Shown here: positions 1,111-8,689 of the stretch, piece by piece
Layout: the number at the start of each line of letters is the position of its first letter
Position numbering within the stretch: the stretch's first letter is position 1
Source: Betaproteobacteria bacterium
Lineage (GTDB): Bacteria > Pseudomonadota > Gammaproteobacteria > Burkholderiales > SG8-39
DNA: 64,000 bases
NCBI GenBank assembly: GCA_016195915.1
Contig: JACPYS010000055.1
Span: forward strand, 516-64,515
Direction: 5' to 3'
Notes under the pieces: model-generated
What the model was told of the DNA's origin: nothing
The model's input: the letters and a program-made list of their open reading frames with translations, nothing else
Databases searched by the model: none
Translations under genes and position numbers: made by a program

Positions 1111-3081
1111 TCATGGTTTCCGTGAGAAAGATTTCTCCTGCGCACGCGGCGCCGGCGCCGGTTTTGCGAGGCCGAGTATCGGTACGAAGTCCTTGTGCAT
1201 CTTGCGCGCATCGCCGATGCGCAGCGTGATGCCGAGTTTGTCCAGGTGTTCCAGGATTTTGATCGCGAGGGTCCTGCCGATACCGGTGGCGTCCCGATAC
1301 TGCGCAGCGGTGAACAACCCCTTCGACGCCGAGCGCGCCACGAGGGCGGCGGTGGCGGCAAGTGTGGCGAGGGTCGCCTTCGGGTAGAAGCGGTCATCGG
1401 TGACACGCATCAGTTCTCCGGCAGTGCTCTTCCGGTGCAGGAAATTCTTGAGCTTCGCCTCGTTCGTACCGAGCTTGAGCGAGAGTTCGGCGACCGTCGG
1501 TGGCGAGAAGCCGCCTTCGAGTAGCACCGGCAGCACCTCGCGCCACATCTTTTCGTCCGCCGCGTTGGAAGTCGGGTCGTGCCCGGAAAGCAGGACGTTC
1601 GAACCGCTCACGGAGAGTTTGCGCTCGTCGGCCAGACCGCGCACCAGGAACGCAAACGCGTCCGCGCTCAGCCAGGGAGCGAGTTCCTTTCTGAGAACCT
1701 GAATGTCGATGCCCGGCGCCTGCGGTTGGGCACGATGGAATTCGGCGAGGCGCGCGAGCATGCGCTCGCAAAGCGCGGTTACGCTGGCGCGCGCCACCGC
1801 CACCCGCTGCTCGCGGCCGAGGATGGCCGCATCGCACGACTTGTAAATCGACGCGGCGCGCGCGGCGGAAATATTGAAGATCACTTCGAAACGCTTGCAG
1901 TCGACCGGCTGTCCCGGAATCTTCAGCAGCGCGGCGAGCGCGGCTTCGGGCGCACCCTGCTCGAGGGCCGTCAGGGCGGCAAGCCGCGCGGGCGACGCGC
2001 GGCGGCTCGCCTGGGCCAAGGGATCGATGACGGTGCCGCCACCCAGCGTGCGCGAGGCCGACTGGTCGCGAAGAATGAAGCGATCGCCGTGGAGTGCGGC
2101 CATCGGCTGATCGAGTACGAGCTGCGCCTGCGCCGACGTGCCCGGGGCGATGGGTGCGCCCTTGACGGTGGCCACGCGCGTCAGGCCCTCTGCGGTCGCC
2201 AGGTGCAGGTGCACCGGCGTCCAGTGCTCGAGCGGCTGGCGTTCCGTCGCGAGCAGCGTGAAGCGCACGTCCATGCGCCAGCTCGGCGCGTGGATCGCCT
2301 CGTGCAGCACCCAGTCGCCGCGCGCGACCGCGCCGACGTCGACCCCCGATAGATTGATGGCGCATCGGTCCCCGGCCCGCGCCCGTTCCGCCACTTTTCC
2401 GCGGATCTGGATGCCGCGCACGCGCACCGGGAGCCCCTTCGGCGAGACCAGGAGCTGGTCGCCGGGGCGGATCTCGCCGTTGAACATCGTGCCGGTCACG
2501 ATGGTGCCGCTGCCTGCGACGCTGAATGTCCGGTCGACGGCGAGGCGGGCATGCTGTCCTTCGCGATAGCGCGCCGCTTGCGCCCTGGTCGCGTCGATCA
2601 GCGCCTGGCGCAAAGGCTCGATGCCTGCACCAGTGACCGCGGAAACCGGGAGCAGGGGGATTGCCGCGAGCGGGGAATCGGCAAGCAGCGCTCGCAGTTC
2701 CGCCTTGACCTGATCAACCCGCGCGGGATCGACGCGGTCGATCTTGGTGATGGCGGCGACCCCGCGGCCGATGCCAAGCAGGCTGAGGATCTGAAGATGC
2801 TCCACCGTCTGCGGCATCACCCCGTCATCCGCCGCGACGGCCAGCAGCGCGAAATCGATGCCGCACACCCCCGCGAGCATGTTGTGGATGAAGCGTTCGT
2901 GGCCGGGAACGTCGACGAATCCGATCAGTGCGCCATCGGCAAGCGGCAAGTAGGCGAAGCCGAGGTCGATCGAGATGCCGCGGGCTTTTTCTTCGGGCAG
3001 GCGGTCGGTGTCCACGCCCGTCAAGGTCTTCACCAGCAGCGTCTTGCCGTGGTCGATGTGGCCCGCGGTGGCGACGATCAT
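1111..3081 (-). CDS. selB: selenocysteine-specific translation elongation factor SelB
   Basis: [45 protein letters not shown], and a C-terminal winged helix [23 protein letters not shown]; 656 aa. Confidence 0.96.
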
Positions 3082-3097
3082 GTTTCTGACGTCCGGT

Positions 3098-4021
3098 TCA
3101 GCGCTGCGAGCTGGCGAGCATTTCCTGCGCGCGTTTGGCGGCCGCTTTTCCGTCGGACACGGCGGCCGAAACCTGGCGCGGCGACCCGCTCCTCACGTCA
3201 CCGGCGGCGTATGCGCCGGAAACATCGGTTTCGAACTGCTCGTTCACAGTGATCCGACCCGAATCGTCGAGCATAAACACGCCCTCGAGATAGCCGGTCG
3301 TGGGCGCATAGCCGACGTGAACCAGCACGCCGTAGACGCCCAGCGTCTCTCGTTTTCCGGTCGCCGCATTTTCGACCACGAGGCCGGTGACGCCTTCCCT
3401 GCCAATGATTTCAACCGGCTTCTCTCCGAGGCGGATTTCCAGCTTTGCATTGGCCAGGGCGCGCGCCTGCAGCACCGGTCTGGCGCTCAATTGCGACTGC
3501 GCTTCGAAGACGAAGACTTTCGACGCAAATCTCGCCAGGTACAGCGCCTCGATGAGTCCTGCGTTTCCGCCGCCGCACACCGCCACCACCCGGTCACGGT
3601 ACAACCCGGCGTCGCACATGGCGCAGTGAATCATGCCTTTGCCCTGAAATTCTTCCTCGCCCGGGATGCCGAGTTTGCGGGAATGCAGCCCGCCGGCCTG
3701 AATCACGACCGACGACGTGTAGGCCCTGCCATCGGCGCAACTGACGGAGATGCAACCGGAATAAGGCTCGATCTCGACCACCTCGGCCAATTCCATCTCC
3801 ACGCCCAATTGTTCGGCCTGCTTCACCATCTCCGAGGCGAGCATCGCGCCCGCTACCTTTTCGCCCGGACGCGGGTAGCCGTTGAGCCACTCGATGTTGA
3901 CGATCGGCCCGCCGAACGATTCCTTCTCCAGCAGCAGCACGCGGTGGCCTGCCTGCGCAAGTTCGGTGCCGGCGGACAAGCCTGCCGGTCCGCCGCCGAT
4001 CACGATCGCGTCGTATTCCAT
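3098..4021 (-). CDS. thioredoxin-reductase/AhpF-like FAD-dependent disulfide reductase
   Basis: [15 protein letters not shown], redox CAMCD motif, GGGNAG, AAGD. Start taken at ATG 4021. Co-oriented with selB, 16 nt gap. Confidence 0.9.
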
Positions 4022-4133
4022 TGCATGGTCCTTGTTGCAGAGTAATTTGAGGCGCGCAAGCTTGACGCTGTGCGACGATTGCATTAAACATTGACGCTCC
4101 AGTGCAATCAACTGTTTCGAACGAGGAGGCAGC

Positions 4134-5834
4134 ATGAACGTGGGCGTGGAAACCAGCCAGCGAAGAGCAGATTACGAGGTGTTGAGCCCGTGGGCCGACG
4201 CGGATCCAGTTCCGCTGCGCGGAATCGCGACGCGCCCGGCCGACGTTTCCGGCAGGAAGATCGGCCTGTTCTCCAACCGCAAGCGCGCCGCGGAGCTGAC
4301 ATTGAGCGCGTTCGAACGGCAGTTGCTGGAAAAGTATCCCGCGGCACAGACCTCGTGGTACGCGTGCAGCACGATCAACACCCCGGAGATGCTGACCGAA
4401 GGCAAGGCGAAGTTCGAAGCCTGGGTGGCGGGCGTCGACGCGGTCGTGCTTTCGGTCGCGGACTGAGGCTCATGCACTAAGTTCCTCGTGCACGATGCAA
4501 TATCCGTTGAGGACTTGCATCGGCCCGCTGTGGTACTGGCGAACGAGGGCTTCGTGACGGACGGGCGGTCTGCCGCGTCGAACAAGGGGATGCCGACAGT
4601 GCGCATCGTGCCGGAGACGGTCCCCTGTGAATGCAGTGTCAAGGAAGATGTGGAGGCTGGCATCGGTTCGGTCATGGCTCAGATCATCGACGCCCTGACG
4701 AACCCCCTTTCTGCCGAAGAACAGGCACCGAAAAGGAAGGAGAAGGGAACGCCCTCGAGAATCGCCTTCAAAGGGCGGTTGGAGGAGTTCGACCGTTTCT
4801 TCTACAAGCGCGGCTGGGGCGACGGCCTGCCGATGCGGCCGCCGACCGAGTCCGCGGTGAGGCAGATGCTGGCGGGGACCGACTTTCCACCCGAGCATGT
4901 CGTCGGCGAGATCGATCCGCGTCGCGGCAAGGCGACGATCGAGAAGATCGCGGTCAATGCCGTCATGGCCGGCGCCTTGCCGACGCACATGCCCATTCTG
5001 ATCGCGTGCGTGGAGGCCCTCGCCGATCCGCGCGCCCATCTGGGCGCCTACGGCACCAGCACCGGTTCGTGGATGCCTTTCTGGATCATCAACGGCCCGG
5101 TGCGCAACGATGCGCGCGTGAACTGCAGTTCCGGCGCGATGAGCCCGGGGGACATCGCCAATGCCGCGATCGGCCGGACCATGGGCCTCATCGTCAAGAA
5201 CGTCGGCGGGGCGCGCAAGGCGATCGAGGATATGGGTGTTTACGGCAACCCGGGAAAGTACTCCTGCGTCGCAGGTGAGAACGAGGAGAACAGCCCATGG
5301 GAACCGCTGCACGTCGAACAGGGATTTGCGAGGGAAGACAGCGCCGTCACGCTGTTCTTCCCGAACTGCTATGCGCAGATCTGGCAGTACGGTTCGGACG
5401 ACAAGGGAATACTCGGCACACTGATCTACAACCTTCCGCCGGGGAGAAGCGGCCTTACCTGCCTCCTGATGACCCCCACCCAGGCGAATACGCTGGCGCA
5501 GAAAGGCTGGACGAAGCCGATGATCCGGAAGTACGTGTACGAGTACGGGCGGGTGTCCGCTTACCGTCACCCGAGCTTCCACGACGGCGGCGGCTGGACC
5601 GGCAGAAGTCCGGAAACCGTACCGCCGAACGCCATGGACGCGGTGGCGATCGTGCCGAGCCCGGAACACATCAGGATTCTGGTATTGGGCGGGCCGGGTG
5701 CGTTCATGGGGCTTGCCTGCGGCGGCGGCCTGCCTGGCGGTCAGTTCGTGACCAAGAAGGTCAGTCTGCCTTCAGGGTGGGCCAAGCTGGTGGCAAAATA
5801 CAGGAGCTTGGTCCCGGCCTACGAAAGGTACTAG
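4134..5834 (+). CDS. UGSC-family selenoprotein fusion, copy 1 (566 aa, Sec at codon 111, TGA 4464-4466)
   Basis: ORFs 4134-4466 and 4488-5834 are in the same frame, separated only by TGA GGC TCA TGC ACT AAG TTC CTC, giving VLSVAD-U-GSCTKFL. RBS GAGGAG precedes 4134 and none precedes 4488. The C-terminal part has the conserved GWGDGLP..PPT / NAVMAG / GNPGKY domain. Confidence 0.9.
4473..4522 (+). promoter_or_regulatory. candidate SECIS (two adjacent hairpins) of selenoprotein copy 1
   Basis: H1 is TGCAC..GTGCA (4473-4492, loop contains AGTTCC). H2 is CGATGCAA-TA-TCC-GTTGA-GGA-C-TTGCATCG (4493-4522). Confidence 0.65.
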
Positions 5835-5961
5835 GCGCGGTTTTGTTGATCCATGTCGCCGTTTTTCCGCGCATTCGCGCTCGATTGGTTTGACAGTGTG
5901 CGGCGTGGGCATCGAATATGAAGTTCCGGTCGCGGTTGACTGTTTCGAACGAGGAGAAATC

Positions 5962-7659
5962 ATGAATGTTGGCGCGGAGGTATCGCAGCGCAGCGCAGAA
6001 TACGAGGTCTTGAGTCCGTGGGCCGACGCCGATCCCGTGCCATCGCGGGGGATTACATCACGGCCCAGGGATCTCGCGGGCAAGAAGATCGGCCTGTACC
6101 TGAATCACAAGCGCGCCGGGCACTTGTCGTTGAGCGCATTCGAACGGGAGTTGCTCGAAAGGGTCCCTTCCGCGACGACTTCCTGGTACCCCTGCACCGG
6201 GCACAACGTTCCGGAGATGCTGACCGAAGGCAAGGCGAAGTTCGAAGCCTGGGTCGGCAGCGTCGACGCGGTCGTGCTCTCGGTCGCGGACTGAGGCTCA
6301 TGCACGAAGTTCCTCGTGCACGATGCAATATCCGTTGAGGACTTGCATCGGCCCGCTGTAGTACTGGCGAACGAGGGCTTCGTGACGGACGGGCGGTCTG
6401 CCGCGTCGAACAAGGGGATGCCGACAGTGCGTATCGTGCCGGAGACGATTCCCTGTGAATCCAGCGTCAAGGAAGATGTCGACGCCGGTATCCATCTGGC
6501 GATGGACCAGATCATCGAAGCGTTGACAAAGCCCCTTTCGGCGGAAGAGCAGGCGCCGAAAAGAAAGGGAAAGGAAAAGCCCTCCAGGATCGTTTTCAAA
6601 GGGCAATTGGGGGAGCTGAACCGCTTCATCTACAAGAGGGGTTGGGGCGATGGCCTGCCCGTGCTTCCCCCGACGGAATCCGCGGTGCGGGAGATGCTGG
6701 CAGGCACCGACTTGCCACCGCAGCACGTCGTCGGCGAGATCGTGCCGCGCCACGGCAAGGCGACGGTCGAGAAGATCGCCATCAATGCCGTCATGGCCGG
6801 CACTCTGCCCACGCACATGCCCATCCTGATCGCGTGCGTCGAGGCGGTTACGGATCCGCTCGTCGATCTGGGCACCTTTGGCACGAGCACCGGTTCGTGG
6901 GCACCTTTCTGGATCATCAACGGGCCGGTCCGAAATGACGTGCACGTGAACTGCGGCTCCGGGGCCCTGAGTCCCGGCGACATTGCCAATGCCGCGATCG
7001 GCAGAGCGATGTGCCTGATCATCAAGAACATCGGCGGCGGGCGCAAAGCGGTCGAGGACATGGGCGTGTTCGGCAACCCCGGCAAGTATTCCAGCGTGAT
7101 CGGGGAAAACGAAGAAAGCAGCCCGTGGGATCCGCTGCATGTCGAACAGGGATTCGCGCGGGACGAGAGCGCGGTGACGCTTTTCTTTCCGAATTCCTAC
7201 TCGCAGCTTTGGCAGTACGGCTCCGACGACGTGGGAATCCTCAGCACCTTGATCTACAACCTCCTGCCCGGAAGGGGCGGGTTGTCGTGCCTTCTGATCA
7301 CCCCGCCGCAGGCGAAGACGCTGGCGAAGAAGGGCTGGACGAAGCAGATGATCAGCAAGTACGTGTTCGAATACGGACGCGTTCCCGCCTATCGTCACCG
7401 ATTCTTCCATGGGGTCGCGCAGGCGCACGGAAGCCTTGGAGTTGTTCCGCCGAATGCGATGGATTCGATGCCGATCATTCCGAGCCCGGATCACATCAGG
7501 ATACTGGTGACCGGGGGACCCGGCGCGTTCGTGGGCCTTGCCTGCGGGGCGGGCCTGCCCGGGCGGGAGTTCGTGACGAAGAAGATCGGATTTCCGGCCG
7601 ACTGGATCAAGCTGGTCGCGAAGTACAAGAGCTTTGTTCCTGCGTACGAAAAGTATTGA
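5962..7659 (+). CDS. UGSC-family selenoprotein fusion, copy 2 (565 aa, Sec at codon 111, TGA 6292-6294)
   Basis: ATG 5962 follows GAGGAG. In-frame TGA, then GGC TCA TGC ACG AAG, continues into ORF 6316-7659. Full-length paralog of copy 1. Confidence 0.9.
6301..6350 (+). promoter_or_regulatory. candidate SECIS (two adjacent hairpins) of selenoprotein copy 2
   Basis: TGCACGA-AGTTCC-TCGTGCA (perfect 7-bp stem), followed by an H2 identical to that of copy 1. Confidence 0.65.
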
Positions 7660-7687
7660 GACCGGAAACTGTCGAGGCGAGGGCGGC

Positions 7688-8689
7688 ATGAAGAGATCAG
7701 CCATCATTGTTGCCGTCTTCGCTTGGCTGGTTTCGTCCGGTTTTCCGGCGAGTTGGGCCGCCGAGGATGATTATCCCGTAAGACCGATCCAGCTCATCGT
7801 TCCTTTCGCTGCGGGCGGCAGCCTGGACATCACCGCTCGCGTCGTGGGGCAGAAACTGCGGGAATATCTGGGTCAGCAACTTGTCATCGTCAACCGACCC
7901 GGCGCGGGAAGCGCGGTTGGCGCACGGTTCCTGGCAAGTTCCCCGCCGGACGGTTATACGATTTACCTCGCTTCCGGCTCGACCTTCGGGTTTCTTCACC
8001 TGCTGGTTCCCGGCTTCCCCTACCAACTCAAGGATTTCGCCCCGATTGCCGCCATCGCTACGAATACCTCCGTATTCGCTGTGAATGCCGAGGTTCCCGT
8101 GAATTCGCTTCCCGAACTGGTCGCCTACGTTCAGAAAAATCCCGGCAAGCTCAACTTCTGCACCACCGGCCTGGGTGGACTCAATCACCTTCAATTCGAA
8201 ATGTTCAAGACTTTGGTGAAGGAAAAGCACGGCGGTTTGCAGTTGGATCTCCCTCACGTACCCTACAACGGCGTCGCACCGGCGCTCACGGCGCTGCGGG
8301 GAAATCAGGTGCAGGTCTGTACTCTGCCCTACAGCAGCCTGCTGAAGAACAGCGACGGCAAGGGCATCCGCATGATCGCGATCATGCGACCGCAGCGGTT
8401 AGCGTCGATCGCGCACGTGCCGGCTTGCGCAGAACAGGGGTTTGCGGAAATGGATGGCAACAATTCCATGGTCAATTTCACTGCTCCTGCCGACACGCCG
8501 GCGCCGATACTCGCAAAGCTGGAGACGGCGCTCCAGAAGACGATGCAGGACAACGAAGTTCGCCAAAAGCTGGAGGACATCGACGCTGCGCCGACGTTCC
8601 TGAGCGCCAGGGAAATGAAGGAATGGCTCGAAGGAGATGTGCGCAAATGGGAAATGATCATCAGGAATGCGAACATGGTCGTGAAATAG
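7688..8689 (+). CDS. Bug/TctC tripartite tricarboxylate transporter substrate-binding protein
   Basis: Signal peptide, YPVRPIQLIVPFAAGGSLD, NRPGAG, PPDGYT, HVPYNG. Confidence 0.9.
   Translation: MKRSAIIVAVFAWLVSSGFPASWAAEDDYPVRPIQLIVPFAAGGSLDITARVVGQKLREYLGQQLVIVNRPGAGSAVGARFLASSPPDGYTIYLASGSTFGFLHLLVPGFPYQLKDFAPIAAIATNTSVFAVNAEVPVNSLPELVAYVQKNPGKLNFCTTGLGGLNHLQFEMFKTLVKEKHGGLQLDLPHVPYNGVAPALTALRGNQVQVCTLPYSSLLKNSDGKGIRMIAIMRPQRLASIAHVPACAEQGFAEMDGNNSMVNFTAPADTPAPILAKLETALQKTMQDNEVRQKLEDIDAAPTFLSAREMKEWLEGDVRKWEMIIRNANMVVK

What the first reader, a model, noticed from the sequence alone, without database searches (positions are those of the whole stretch)
4467..4525. Atypical tandem double-hairpin SECIS candidate encoded with rare codons
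Seen: two abutting stems follow each UGA. H1 has loop AGUUCC, 13 nt from the UGA. H2 has an 8-bp stem CGATGCAA/TTGCATCG, an internal loop, TCC/GGA and loop GUUGA, 39 nt from the UGA. H2 uses GCA ATA TCC GTT GAG GAC TTG CAT, A/T-rich codons unusual for this GC-rich DNA and identical in both copies. Established: bacterial SECIS loops have G(U) near the start and usually lie about 16-37 nt from the UGA. Both loops have the GU but sit just outside that range. Inference: a non-canonical SECIS that standard predictors may miss.
Basis: partly seen in the sequence, partly recalled or inferred. Interest (0 to 1): 0.7.

Follow-up and report, generated by a model that had tools for sequence, protein, structure and literature searches.

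The report
Relocated, multi-helix selenocysteine signal in UGSC genes

Summary
Both hairpins exist as described, after each of two in-frame UGAs (4464-4466 and 6292-6294). The genes are tandem UGSC-family selenoprotein fusions lying next to selB in an uncultured Burkholderiales genome.

In 33 of 34 other UGSC genes the SECIS is a local hairpin at nt 15-33 with G23 U24, spaced as in E. coli. This subfamily (motif U-G-S-C-T-K-F/Y) has lost that hairpin.

H2 (4493-4522) is under selection. It is far more stable than synonymous recodings of the same peptide (P about 0.001). It lies in the gene's deepest trough of synonymous variation. A hairpin is kept at that spot in distant orthologs with different stem sequences.

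H1 (4473-4492) is no more than the Cys-Thr...Val-His codons give by chance (P 0.2-0.7). Its pairs 12-27 and 15-24 are often broken. In context it loses to a conserved long-range helix P1 (nt 12-26 with 80-93).

A third conserved hairpin, H3 (4560-4579, loop GGUCU), lies 100 nt after the UGA.

Verdict: the recoding signal is a roughly 105-nt P1-H2-Hs-H3 domain, not an H1+H2 tandem. H2 is the likeliest SelB site and H3 is the rival. This is a new variant of a known kind.

The parts
4134..5834 (+). Gene A: a UGSC-domain (residues 16-189) selenoprotein fused to an uncharacterised C-terminal domain of about 377 aa. It is 566 aa when the in-frame UGA is read as Sec at residue 111.
   Evidence: PF24696, 97.2 bits; NF041046, 77.7 bits, below the 125-bit cut-off.
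4464..4466 (+). Sec-UGA of gene A, in the motif V-A-D-U-G-S-C-T-K-F.
   Evidence: All 17 ortholog places found by protein search carry one TGA here.
4473..4492 (+). H1 (nt 10-29): a local hairpin with loop AGUUCC. It is not selected in this lineage and is an alternative pairing of the P1 5' strand.
4475..4489 (+). P1 5' strand (nt 12-26, CACUAAGUUCCUCGU), with U20 bulged.
4493..4522 (+). H2 (nt 30-59): an 8-bp stem, internal loop UA/C, UCC/GGA and loop GUUGA. It is the likeliest SelB-binding arm.
4527..4540 (+). Hs (nt 64-77): a small third arm of the junction. It is 4 bp here and 7 bp in group X orthologs.
4543..4556 (+). P1 3' strand (nt 80-93, ACGAGGGCUUCGUG; codons N-E-G-F-V).
4560..4579 (+). 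H3 (nt 97-116): GACG-GGC [GGUCU] GCC-(G bulge)-CGUC. It is a conserved SECIS-like hairpin 100 nt after the UGA.
5962..7659 (+). Gene B: a tandem paralog of gene A (77% protein identity), with its Sec-UGA at 6292-6294.
6301..6407 (+). Gene B copies of the same elements: H1 6301-6320, P1 6303-6317 with 6371-6384, H2 6321-6350, Hs 6355-6368, H3 6388-6407.
1111..3081 (-). selB, the selenocysteine-specific elongation factor. It is the only selB in the assembly.
   Evidence: TIGR00475, 399.3 bits, cut-off 242.
3098..4021 (-). Thioredoxin-reductase-like flavoprotein (307 aa, motif C-A-M-C) lying between selB and gene A.
   Evidence: PF07992, 145.5 bits.

Best explanation
Both UGAs are selenocysteine codons of two tandem UGSC-family selenoprotein fusion genes.

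The UGSC family normally carries an E. coli-type SECIS. This is a 7-bp hairpin at nt 15-33 with G23 U24 in its loop, encoded by T-S-(C/W)-x-x-H-D. In this subfamily the motif changed to T-K-(F/Y)-L-V-H-D, which destroyed that hairpin.

The recoding signal is now a longer conserved RNA domain:
- A long-range helix P1 (nt 12/16-26 with 80-89/93) starts where the old SECIS stem started.
- P1 closes a three-way junction whose arms are H2 (nt 30-59) and a small hairpin Hs (nt 64-77).
- A further hairpin H3 follows at nt 97-116, with loop GGUCU.

Inferred mechanism: when the ribosome holds the UGA in its A site, H1 cannot persist or is out-competed by P1. The junction sits at the mRNA entrance. SelB carrying Sec-tRNA docks on a G-U-bearing apical loop, most likely that of H2. 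H3 is either a second docking site or an auxiliary element.

What is shown: the structures, their conservation and the synonymous-site constraint. What is inferred: SelB binding and which arm it uses.
For: Gene identity and machinery:
- PF24696 (UGSC) scores 97.2 and 88.2 bits.
- selB is adjacent. selA and selD are in the genome.
- 6 of 7 UGSC matches in the genome have one TGA at the same place.
- All 17 ortholog places in 14 of 317 family genomes keep the TGA, as do 9 more in another order.

Canonical SECIS in the family:
- 33 of 34 distinct paralog contexts fold a hairpin with its 5' arm starting at nt 15 or 16 and GU in the loop.
- The stems are unrelated between sub-branches: GUCGUGG/CCACGAC, GCCCGC/GCGGGC and CCGGCCUC/GAGGCCGG.
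- The position matches E. coli: a 17-nt element at nt 15-31, with U17, G23 and U24 (PMC8659212, passages).

H2:
- Synonymous-recoding null: P = 0.0005-0.0025 by free energy, and all 11 pairs form with P = 0.0013-0.0017.
- 38 of 42 distinct orthologs have P <= 0.033.
- In the 11 closest full-length orthologs the synonymous difference is 0.41 overall. It falls to 0.03, the minimum for the whole gene, in 10-codon windows starting at codons +5 to +10.
- Loop nt 45 varies freely among U, G, A and C while the paired synonymous sites are frozen.
- A hairpin with a different stem persists at that site in distant lineages: AUCUCY/GGAGAU, GGUCUC/GAGGCC and CUCUAU/AUAGAG, with loops GUUGA, AGUU and AGUC, 35-39 nt from the UGA.
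- 56 of 66 distinct orthologs meet the loop, G and free-energy criteria of the bSECIS model.

P1:
- 94.5-99.3% of cells are paired.
- Pair 15-90 occurs as GC 16, AU 9, GU 4 and unpaired 28. Pair 21-85 occurs as CG 40 and UG 17. Pair 18-87 changes to AU in one sequence.
- Codons are frozen: CUC in 60 of 60 Leu, GAG in 60 of 61, AAC in 61 of 61.
- Mean ensemble pair probability is 0.73, against 0.08 for H1. With nt 1-14 blocked it is 0.66 against 0.

H3:
- Frozen rare codons: GGG 60 of 61, CGG 57 of 57 Arg, UCU 52 of 61. G105, U106 and C107 are invariant in 61 of 61, even where Arg34 becomes Gln.
- Two covarying forms exist: GGGC[NGUCU]GCC and GGCC[GGUC]GGCC.
- The specific pairs give P = 0.02. 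In group X the free energy gives P = 0.003-0.024.
Against: - Nothing here shows SelB binding or Sec insertion.
- No tRNA-Sec gene was found in the assembly by ARAGORN or RF01852. The best hits are tRNA-Ser. The assembly is a 67-contig draft with 43 tRNA genes.
- H2 lies 39 nt from the UGA, 20 nt further than the family's canonical loop and outside the 16-37 nt model range. Its contiguous upper stem is 3 bp.
- Its loop G43 is A or U in 10 of 61 distinct orthologs. 5 of 66 have no G in the first two loop positions.
- H2 is weak in G019 (-5.4 kcal/mol, P 0.58). It is not individually significant in 3 of 4 group X, 1 of 3 group Y and 2 of 2 group Z orthologs (P 0.08-0.2).
- In 5 g18-clade orthologs the H2 codons show ordinary synonymous variation (0.43-0.45).
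- Strict-register covariation is thin. Only pair 33-56 (UA to CG, 4 sequences) and pair 30-59 (1 sequence) changed on both sides.
- The sequences are related, so counts overstate independence.
- P1 alone is not beyond chance in a single sequence (P 0.19-0.20). P1 and H3 are degraded or absent in groups Y and Z.
- 4 of 66 orthologs pass the criteria for none of the three hairpins.
Confidence: 0.55

Rival explanations
1. H3 is the real SelB-binding SECIS. It is a canonical-looking 7-bp hairpin with loop NGUCN that lies 100 nt downstream. Helix P1 loops out nt 16-89, which brings H3 close to the UGA. The effective path to the H3 loop would then be about 12 + 7 + 7 = 26 nt. On this view H2 and Hs only compact the looped-out spacer.
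For: - The H3 loop GGUCU/AGUCU has the same N-G-U-N-U form as the canonical loops of the paralogs, which are AGUCU, AGUGU, UGUAU and AGUUU.
- G105, U106 and C107 are invariant in 61 of 61, including across Arg34 to Gln.
- 61 of 66 orthologs pass the loop, G and free-energy criteria, more than for H2.
- Across all 16 full-length orthologs the minimum of synonymous variation for the whole gene lies at codons +23 to +43, which cover the P1 3' strand and H3.
- In group X the free energy gives P = 0.003-0.024.
- The 5 orthologs whose H2 loop lacks G all keep H3.
- A possible engineered precedent is a 3'-UTR SECIS working in E. coli (Su, Li and Gladyshev 2005). I saw only its title in a reference list; its content is recalled.
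Against: - At 100 nt in linear distance it has no natural bacterial precedent that I could find.
- Reviews state an 11-nt restriction in E. coli (PMC11431864).
- The H3 loop motif is lost, and P1 is weakened, in groups Y and Z (5 of 66), which still keep the UGA.
- In the window's own genes the H3 free energy is not beyond the synonymous null (P 0.19-0.20).
- The effective-distance argument is geometric inference only.
Confidence: 0.25
2. One reading: H1 and H2 act together as an abutting double-hairpin SECIS. H1 either binds SelB through its AGUUCC loop or shortens the path to H2.
For: - The H1 loop A-G-U-U-C-C resembles the canonical loop AGUUU. G18 is kept in 60 of 61 and U19 in 61 of 61.
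- H1 ends at nt 29 and H2 starts at nt 30.
- In group Y, and in 1 of 2 group Z orthologs, H1 is intact through an A15-U24 pair (ACA with CUU). RNAfold draws H1+H2 in 2 of 3 group Y sequences. H1 gives P = 0.085-0.136 there.
Against: - H1 is not beyond the synonymous null: P 0.45 and 0.18 by free energy, P 0.71 and 0.21 by pairs. Only 1 of 42 orthologs has P <= 0.05.
- Pair 15-24 forms in 20 of 57 and pair 12-27 is broken in 17 of 57, with no compensation.
- Only 7 of 66 orthologs pass the bSECIS loop and free-energy criteria.
- Ensemble probability is 0.08.
- The variable sites nt 15 and nt 27 are paired in H1. In the P1 model nt 27 is unpaired, and nt 15 pairs with nt 90, with which it covaries.
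- The invariant CUC codon is better explained by P1.
Confidence: 0.12
3. The conserved structures do not serve Sec decoding. They could be an mRNA stability, processing or attenuation element, or a DNA-level inverted repeat bound by a protein. Alternatively the UGA is a true stop separating two genes.
For: - No Rfam family matches the region and no experiment exists.
- Public gene calls treat the part after the UGA as a separate 412-448 aa protein.
- tRNA-Sec was not found.
Against: - The constraint starts right after a conserved in-frame UGA. That UGA aligns with the Sec of a known selenoprotein family, in a genome with selA, selB and selD.
- The UGSC domain spans the UGA (residues 16-189).
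- A Cys-form homolog reads straight through (P0086).
- The subfamily has lost the canonical SECIS, so some replacement is needed.
- Conservation follows RNA pairing: variable sites fall in loops and bulges.
Confidence: 0.08

Closest known systems
E. coli-type bacterial SECIS (fdhF). A 17-nt hairpin at nt 15-31, 11 nt after the UGA, with determinants U17, G23 and U24 (PMC8659212, passages).
   Same: - It lies in the coding sequence directly downstream of a Sec-UGA.
- It is an apical hairpin with G-U in the loop, in a genome with SelB.
- The UGSC paralogs in this same genome match the E. coli spacing exactly, with G23 U24.
   Different: - In these two genes no hairpin stands at nt 15-33.
- The candidate loops are at nt 43-47 (H2) and nt 104-108 (H3).
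- The stem that starts at nt 12/16 pairs with nt 80-93 and closes a three-way junction rather than a simple hairpin.
bSECIS consensus model of bSECISearch, as summarised in PMC13188914 (passages).
   Same: H2 has a 5-nt apical loop starting with G then U, and a free energy of -14.6 kcal/mol. It lies downstream of the UGA.
   Different: - Spacing is 39 nt against the model's 16-37 nt.
- The contiguous upper stem is 3 bp against the model's 4-16 bp.
- The same review notes that a subset of putative bSECIS elements fail the model, so failure alone is not unprecedented.
UGSC-containing selenoprotein family, and the UGSC/Unknown_1 fusion noted in ocean metagenomes (PMC2398784, passages; NF041046 / PF24696).
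   Same: - The U-G-S-C motif and the UGSC domain are present.
- The UGSC domain is fused to a conserved domain of unknown function.
   Different: - The second redox motif is changed from C-T-S-(C/W) to C-T-K-(F/Y).
- The NCBIfam equivalog score is below its cut-off.
- I could not see Figure S1 of that paper, so I did not check whether its Unknown_1 is this C-terminal domain.
An engineered distal SECIS in E. coli (Su, Li and Gladyshev 2005, NAR). Only the title was seen, in a reference list; the content is recalled.
   Same: It carries the idea that a SECIS hairpin can act from further away if RNA pairing holds it near the UGA. That is what P1 would do for H3.
   Different: That was an artificial construct. 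Here it would be a natural arrangement inside a coding region, and it is unproven.

Membership tests
Bacterial SECIS (bSECIS consensus model) | [quoted passage not shown] | tested here: met
   H1, H2 and H3 all lie within 116 nt after the UGA at 4464-4466, and likewise after the UGA at 6292-6294.
Bacterial SECIS (bSECIS consensus model) | Apical loop of 3-9 nt with G in one of its first two positions, usually followed by G or U. | tested here: met
   H2 loop GUUGA and H3 loop GGUCU both qualify. The H1 loop is AGUUCC in gene B but a 10-nt loop in gene A. [quoted passage not shown]
Bacterial SECIS (bSECIS consensus model) | Spacing of 16-37 nt between the UGA and the apical loop. | tested here: not met
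   H1 has 13 nt (11 nt when the loop opens), H2 has 39 nt and H3 has 100 nt. In group Z the H2-type hairpin is at 35 nt.
Bacterial SECIS (bSECIS consensus model) | Upper stem of 4-16 bp and a minimum free energy of -7.5 kcal/mol or lower. | tested here: inconclusive
   H2 gives -14.6 kcal/mol and 11 bp in all, but only 3 contiguous bp lie above the internal loop. H3 has 3 bp, a bulge, then 4 bp. H1 gives -5.4 for gene A and -10.4 for gene B.
Bacterial SECIS (bSECIS consensus model) | Binds SelB and directs Sec insertion at the UGA. | not testable with these tools
E. coli-type SECIS position as used by the UGSC family | A hairpin starting 11-12 nt after the UGA with G23 U24 in its loop. | tested here: not met
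   33 of 34 paralog contexts have it. In genes A and B only 4 of 7 positions of nt 15-21 can pair with nt 27-33, and they are not contiguous (read).
UGSC family (seleno)protein | Match to the family profile. | tested here: met
   PF24696 scores 97.2 and 88.2 bits against a cut-off of 25. The NCBIfam equivalog NF041046 scores only 77.7 and 67.4 bits against a cut-off of 125. So these are family members, but not the named equivalog.
UGSC family (seleno)protein | A U-G-S-C motif with the Sec encoded by an in-frame TGA. | tested here: met
   The motif reads V-A-D-U-G-S-C in both genes. 6 of 7 UGSC matches in the genome have a TGA there.

The most novel reading that the evidence does not exclude
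This may be a natural bacterial SECIS that acts at a distance. A canonical-type SelB hairpin (H3, loop GGUCU) lies 100 nt downstream of the UGA. A conserved long-range helix (P1) would hold it at the ribosome's mRNA entrance by looping out a folded 74-nt spacer (H2 + Hs). Alternatively, H2 and H3 may be two SelB docking sites serving one UGA. Either reading would break the rule that bacterial SECIS elements must sit within about 40 nt of the UGA.
Probability: 0.25. Interest if true: 0.8.

Novelty: new variant of a known kind. Interest (0 to 1): 0.5.

Why it matters
Bacterial selenoprotein genes are found and annotated by looking for a simple hairpin 16-37 nt after a UGA. This subfamily fails that test. 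Public records hold it only as truncated 'hypothetical proteins' of 412-448 aa, although it has thousands of homolog clusters.

The case shows how a SECIS can move when the protein motif that encoded it changes. It also shows that the replacement can be a larger, branched RNA structure.

If H3 or the P1 clamp proves functional, the strict proximity rule for bacterial Sec decoding would need revising. That would matter for selenoprotein prediction and for engineering Sec insertion without changing the residues next to the UGA.

Tried and rejected
- Rfam: no family matches at gathering scores across the window except one tRNA. With E up to 10 on 4440-4620 there are only two chance-level minus-strand hits.
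- tRNA-Sec: not found by RF01852 (best 46.7 bits, which ARAGORN calls tRNA-Ser). ARAGORN on the whole assembly also found none.
- A selenocysteine formate dehydrogenase, sought as an independent SECIS from this genome: none of the 29 matches has a TGA.
- A covariance model of the canonical SECIS, to score H1, H2 and H3: not built. The ungapped alignment A4 mixes stem registers, and primary sequence would have dominated the model. I used a descriptor count instead.
- A lower extension of H3 (nt 87-92 with 119-124): ensemble probability 0.05-0.20, and it competes with the P1 extension. Dropped.
- Internal re-initiation at GUG codon 30 behind the GAGGG of the P1 3' strand: rejected, because that codon is GUA or GUC in 12 of 61 orthologs.
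- A class-wide sample of 400 genomes gave no further orthologs.
- DNA of Cys-form homologs, wanted as a natural control: P0086 is known only as protein. In the three stop-free 40-41% relatives (L185-L187) my regex found no U/C-G-x-C site, and I did not study them further.
- C-terminal domain: no Pfam family and no PDB sequence match. The AlphaFold model has mean pLDDT 78.5. Foldseek's best TM-score is 0.26. VIA-align's best Z is 6.7 over 72 residues. No fold assignment was made.
- The Su et al. 2005 paper is not held.
- No RNA-seq look-up and no complex prediction were run.
Full report
**What is at the site**

The window is G000:C2:516-64515. The ORFs 4134-4466 and 4488-5834 are in one frame and are separated only by a TGA at 4464-4466. 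Read through, they give a 566-aa protein with the motif V-A-D-U-G-S-C-T-K-F. A second gene (ATG at 5962, TGA at 6292-6294, end at 7659) is a tandem paralog with 77% protein identity.

Residues 16-189 match Pfam PF24696 (UGSC) at 97.2 and 88.2 bits. The NCBIfam equivalog NF041046 scores only 77.7 and 67.4 bits against a cut-off of 125. The remaining 377 aa or so have no Pfam family and no PDB sequence relative.

UGSC-containing proteins are a known, abundant selenoprotein family, and a UGSC/Unknown_1 fusion has been reported (PMC2398784, passages).

Immediately upstream on the other strand lie selB (1111-3081; 399.3 bits) and a thioredoxin-reductase-like gene (3098-4021). selA (567 bits) and selD (431 bits) are elsewhere in the genome. 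No tRNA-Sec was found in this 67-contig draft. Record titles of matching contigs name uncultured Burkholderiales or Betaproteobacteria.

**The observation**

I number from the U of the UGA as nt 1. H1 is nt 10-16 paired with 23-29, with loop AGUUCC. H2 is nt 30-37 paired with 52-59 plus 40-42 paired with 48-50, with loop GUUGA. The H2 30-mer occurs exactly twice in the window and never in 100 shuffles. Five of the eight H2 codons are minor codons locally.

**What the family normally does**

The genome has 7 UGSC matches, 6 of them with a TGA. The four short paralogs each have one perfect 7-bp hairpin, GUCGUGS-NGUNU-SCACGAC, at nt 15-33 with G23 U24.

I examined 34 distinct paralog contexts from this genome and five others. 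In 33 of them a hairpin stands at that position, always with GU in the loop, and with unrelated stems in different sub-branches. The exception, L159, has its hairpin a few nt downstream. This is the E. coli geometry: a 17-nt element at nt 15-31, 11 nt from the UGA, with U17, G23 and U24 (PMC8659212, passages).

In genes A and B the peptide T-K-F-L-V-H-D replaces T-S-(C/W)-x-x-H-D, and nt 15-21 can no longer pair with nt 27-33.

**Orthologs**

A protein search of 317 genomes of the same family found 17 ortholog places (E <= 1e-100) in 14 genomes, all with one TGA. A DNA pattern covering only nt 1-35 says nothing about H2, so it samples H2 without bias. It found 56 metagenome and 20 genome loci. 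Together these gave 42 distinct 66-mers from 94 places and 61 distinct 171-mers. A second order, reached through locus L139, gave 9 more places at 52-66% identity, all with a TGA.

**H2 is selected; H1 is not**

I resampled synonymous codons for the same peptide with local codon usage.
- H2 region: -14.6 kcal/mol against -7.0 +/- 2.5, with P = 0.0025 for gene A and 0.0005 for gene B.
- H1 region: P = 0.45 and 0.18.
- By named pairs: H2 has 11 of 11 pairs (P = 0.0013-0.0017). H1 has 6 of 7 (P = 0.71) and 7 of 7 (P = 0.21).
- Across 42 distinct orthologs, 38 have P <= 0.033 for H2. The four exceptions have P 0.18-0.58. Only 1 of 42 reaches P <= 0.05 for H1. That test used this genome's codon usage and 300 samples each.

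In a codon alignment of 16 full-length orthologs, the 11 closest have a synonymous difference of 0.41 overall. It falls to 0.03 in 10-codon windows starting at codons +5 to +10, which is the minimum for the whole gene.

In H1, pair 15-24 forms in 20 of 57 distinct sequences and pair 12-27 is broken in 17 of 57, with no compensation.

In H2, fixed-register covariation is thin (33-56 UA to CG in 4 sequences). But diverged orthologs keep a hairpin at the same place with new stems (AUCUCY/GGAGAU, GGUCUC/GAGGCC, CUCUAU/AUAGAG) and loops GUUGA, AGUU or AGUC, 35-39 nt from the UGA. In those distant groups the single-sequence tests are modest, with P = 0.02-0.2.

RNAalifold and ensemble folding of 129 nt prefer a long-range helix, P1. 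It pairs nt 12/16-26 (CACNAAGU-CCUCGU, with U20 bulged) with nt 80-89/93 (ACGAGG-GCUUNGUG).

Mean pair probabilities over 57 distinct orthologs are:
- H1 0.08
- P1 0.73
- H2 0.82-0.83
- small arm Hs (nt 64-77) 0.52
- H3 0.73

With nt 1-14 blocked, to mimic a ribosome holding the UGA, the values are H1 0, P1 0.66, H2 0.83-0.84 and H3 0.76.

P1 is paired in 94.5-99.3% of cells. Pair 15-90 occurs as GC 16, AU 9, GU 4 and unpaired 28. Pair 21-85 occurs as CG 40 and UG 17. Pair 18-87 becomes AU once. The Leu codon CUC is used in 60 of 60 cases, GAG in 60 of 61 and AAC in 61 of 61. The sites that vary freely fall outside the P1 pairs: nt 20 is the bulge, and nt 27 and 78 are in the linkers. In a single sequence P1 is not beyond chance (P 0.19-0.20).

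**H3**

H3 (nt 97-116) is GACG-GGC[GGUCU]GCC-(G)-CGUC. Its codons are frozen, including rare ones: GGG 60 of 61, CGG 57 of 57 Arg, UCU 52 of 61, GCC 61 of 61. Variation sits in loop nt 104 and 108 and in bulge nt 112. G105, U106 and C107 are invariant even where Arg34 becomes Gln.

Two covarying forms occur: GGGC[NGUCU]GCC and GGCC[GGUC]GGCC. Its specific pairs give P = 0.02 here, but the free energy is not significant (P = 0.19-0.20). In group X the free energy gives P = 0.003-0.024. Over all 16 full-length orthologs the gene-wide minimum of synonymous variation lies at codons +23 to +43.

In the low-GC groups Y and Z, P1 is weakened and the H3 loop motif is lost. H1 is intact through an A15-U24 pair in 4 of those 5 sequences.

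**Against the bSECIS model**

The model asks for a loop of 3-9 nt, G in the first two loop positions, a free energy of -7.5 kcal/mol or lower, an upper stem of 4-16 bp, and spacing of 16-37 nt (PMC13188914, passages). On the first three criteria, 7 of 66 distinct orthologs pass for H1, 56 of 66 for H2 and 61 of 66 for H3. Four of 66 pass for none. Spacing is 11-15, 35-42 and 98-102 nt respectively, so none of the three fits in this window.

**Reading**

The recoding signal here is a conserved domain of about 105 nt, not an H1+H2 tandem.

H2 is the arm I think most likely to dock SelB. It is the nearest to the UGA, it has the strongest selection signal, and it is the only hairpin kept in every lineage.

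H3 is a serious rival. Its loop has the form of the canonical loops and is invariant in this lineage. P1 could hold it near the ribosome.

Which arm binds SelB, and whether Sec is inserted at all, are inferences.

**Other points**

The C-terminal domain was modelled with mean pLDDT 78.5. It has no convincing structural relative: the best Foldseek TM-score is 0.26 and the best VIA-align Z is 6.7 over 72 residues.

Noticed in passing
window 4560-4579 and 6388-6407: A third conserved hairpin, H3, with loop GGUCU lies 100 nt after each UGA. It is encoded with frozen rare codons (GGG, CGG, UCU). Its loop has the same form as the canonical SECIS loops of the UGSC paralogs.
   Followed up: yes
window 4475-4489 with 4543-4556; 6303-6317 with 6371-6384: A long-range helix, P1, closes a three-way junction around H2. 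It competes with H1 and shows G-C to A-U covariation at pair 15-90.
   Followed up: yes
window 1111-4021 and ortholog loci L029, L058-L063, L068: The order selB, thioredoxin-reductase-like gene, then (divergently) the UGSC fusion gene is conserved. The N-terminus of selB was found in the flank of 8 of 15 ortholog loci. It was not seen within the flanks held for the g18 clade.
   Followed up: partly
window 4701-5831 (C-terminal domain of gene A): This 377-aa domain has no Pfam family, no PDB sequence match and no clear fold match. Yet at least 6141 homolog clusters exist, all labelled hypothetical. Most are called only from after the UGA (412-448 aa), so public annotation truncates these genes.
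   Followed up: partly
G000 contigs C30, C22, C7, C47 (loci L017-L022): The genome has four short Sec-UGSC genes, each next to a separate gene homologous to the C-terminal domain (the split form). One of them lies beside selA. There is also one long stop-free form with H-C-S-T-C at the Sec position. No Sec-containing formate dehydrogenase was found, so UGSC genes were the only selenoprotein genes I identified in this genome.
   Followed up: partly
relatives G010 and G030: The family is greatly expanded in some relatives: 35 and 30 matches in single genomes, in both fused and split forms.
   Followed up: no
window 4112-4128 and 5940-5956: Both genes have the same 17-nt leader, CTGTTTCGAACGAGGAG, ending in the ribosome-binding site. 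It shares CGAACGAGG with the P1 3' strand, so the P1 5' strand (CCUCGU) could also pair with the ribosome-binding site.
   Followed up: no
whole assembly G000: No tRNA-Sec gene was detected, although selA, selB and selD are present. Only 43 tRNA genes were called, so it is probably unassembled.
   Followed up: partly
protein P0086: This is a Cys-form member of the same T-K-Y subfamily (V-A-D-C-G-S-C-T-K-Y), 560 aa and uninterrupted. It would be a natural control for the RNA constraints, but no DNA was available.
   Followed up: no
window 7634-8689: A TctC/Bug-family periplasmic binding-protein gene follows gene B (PF03401, 180 bits). Its homologs also follow the orthologs in several loci.
   Followed up: no
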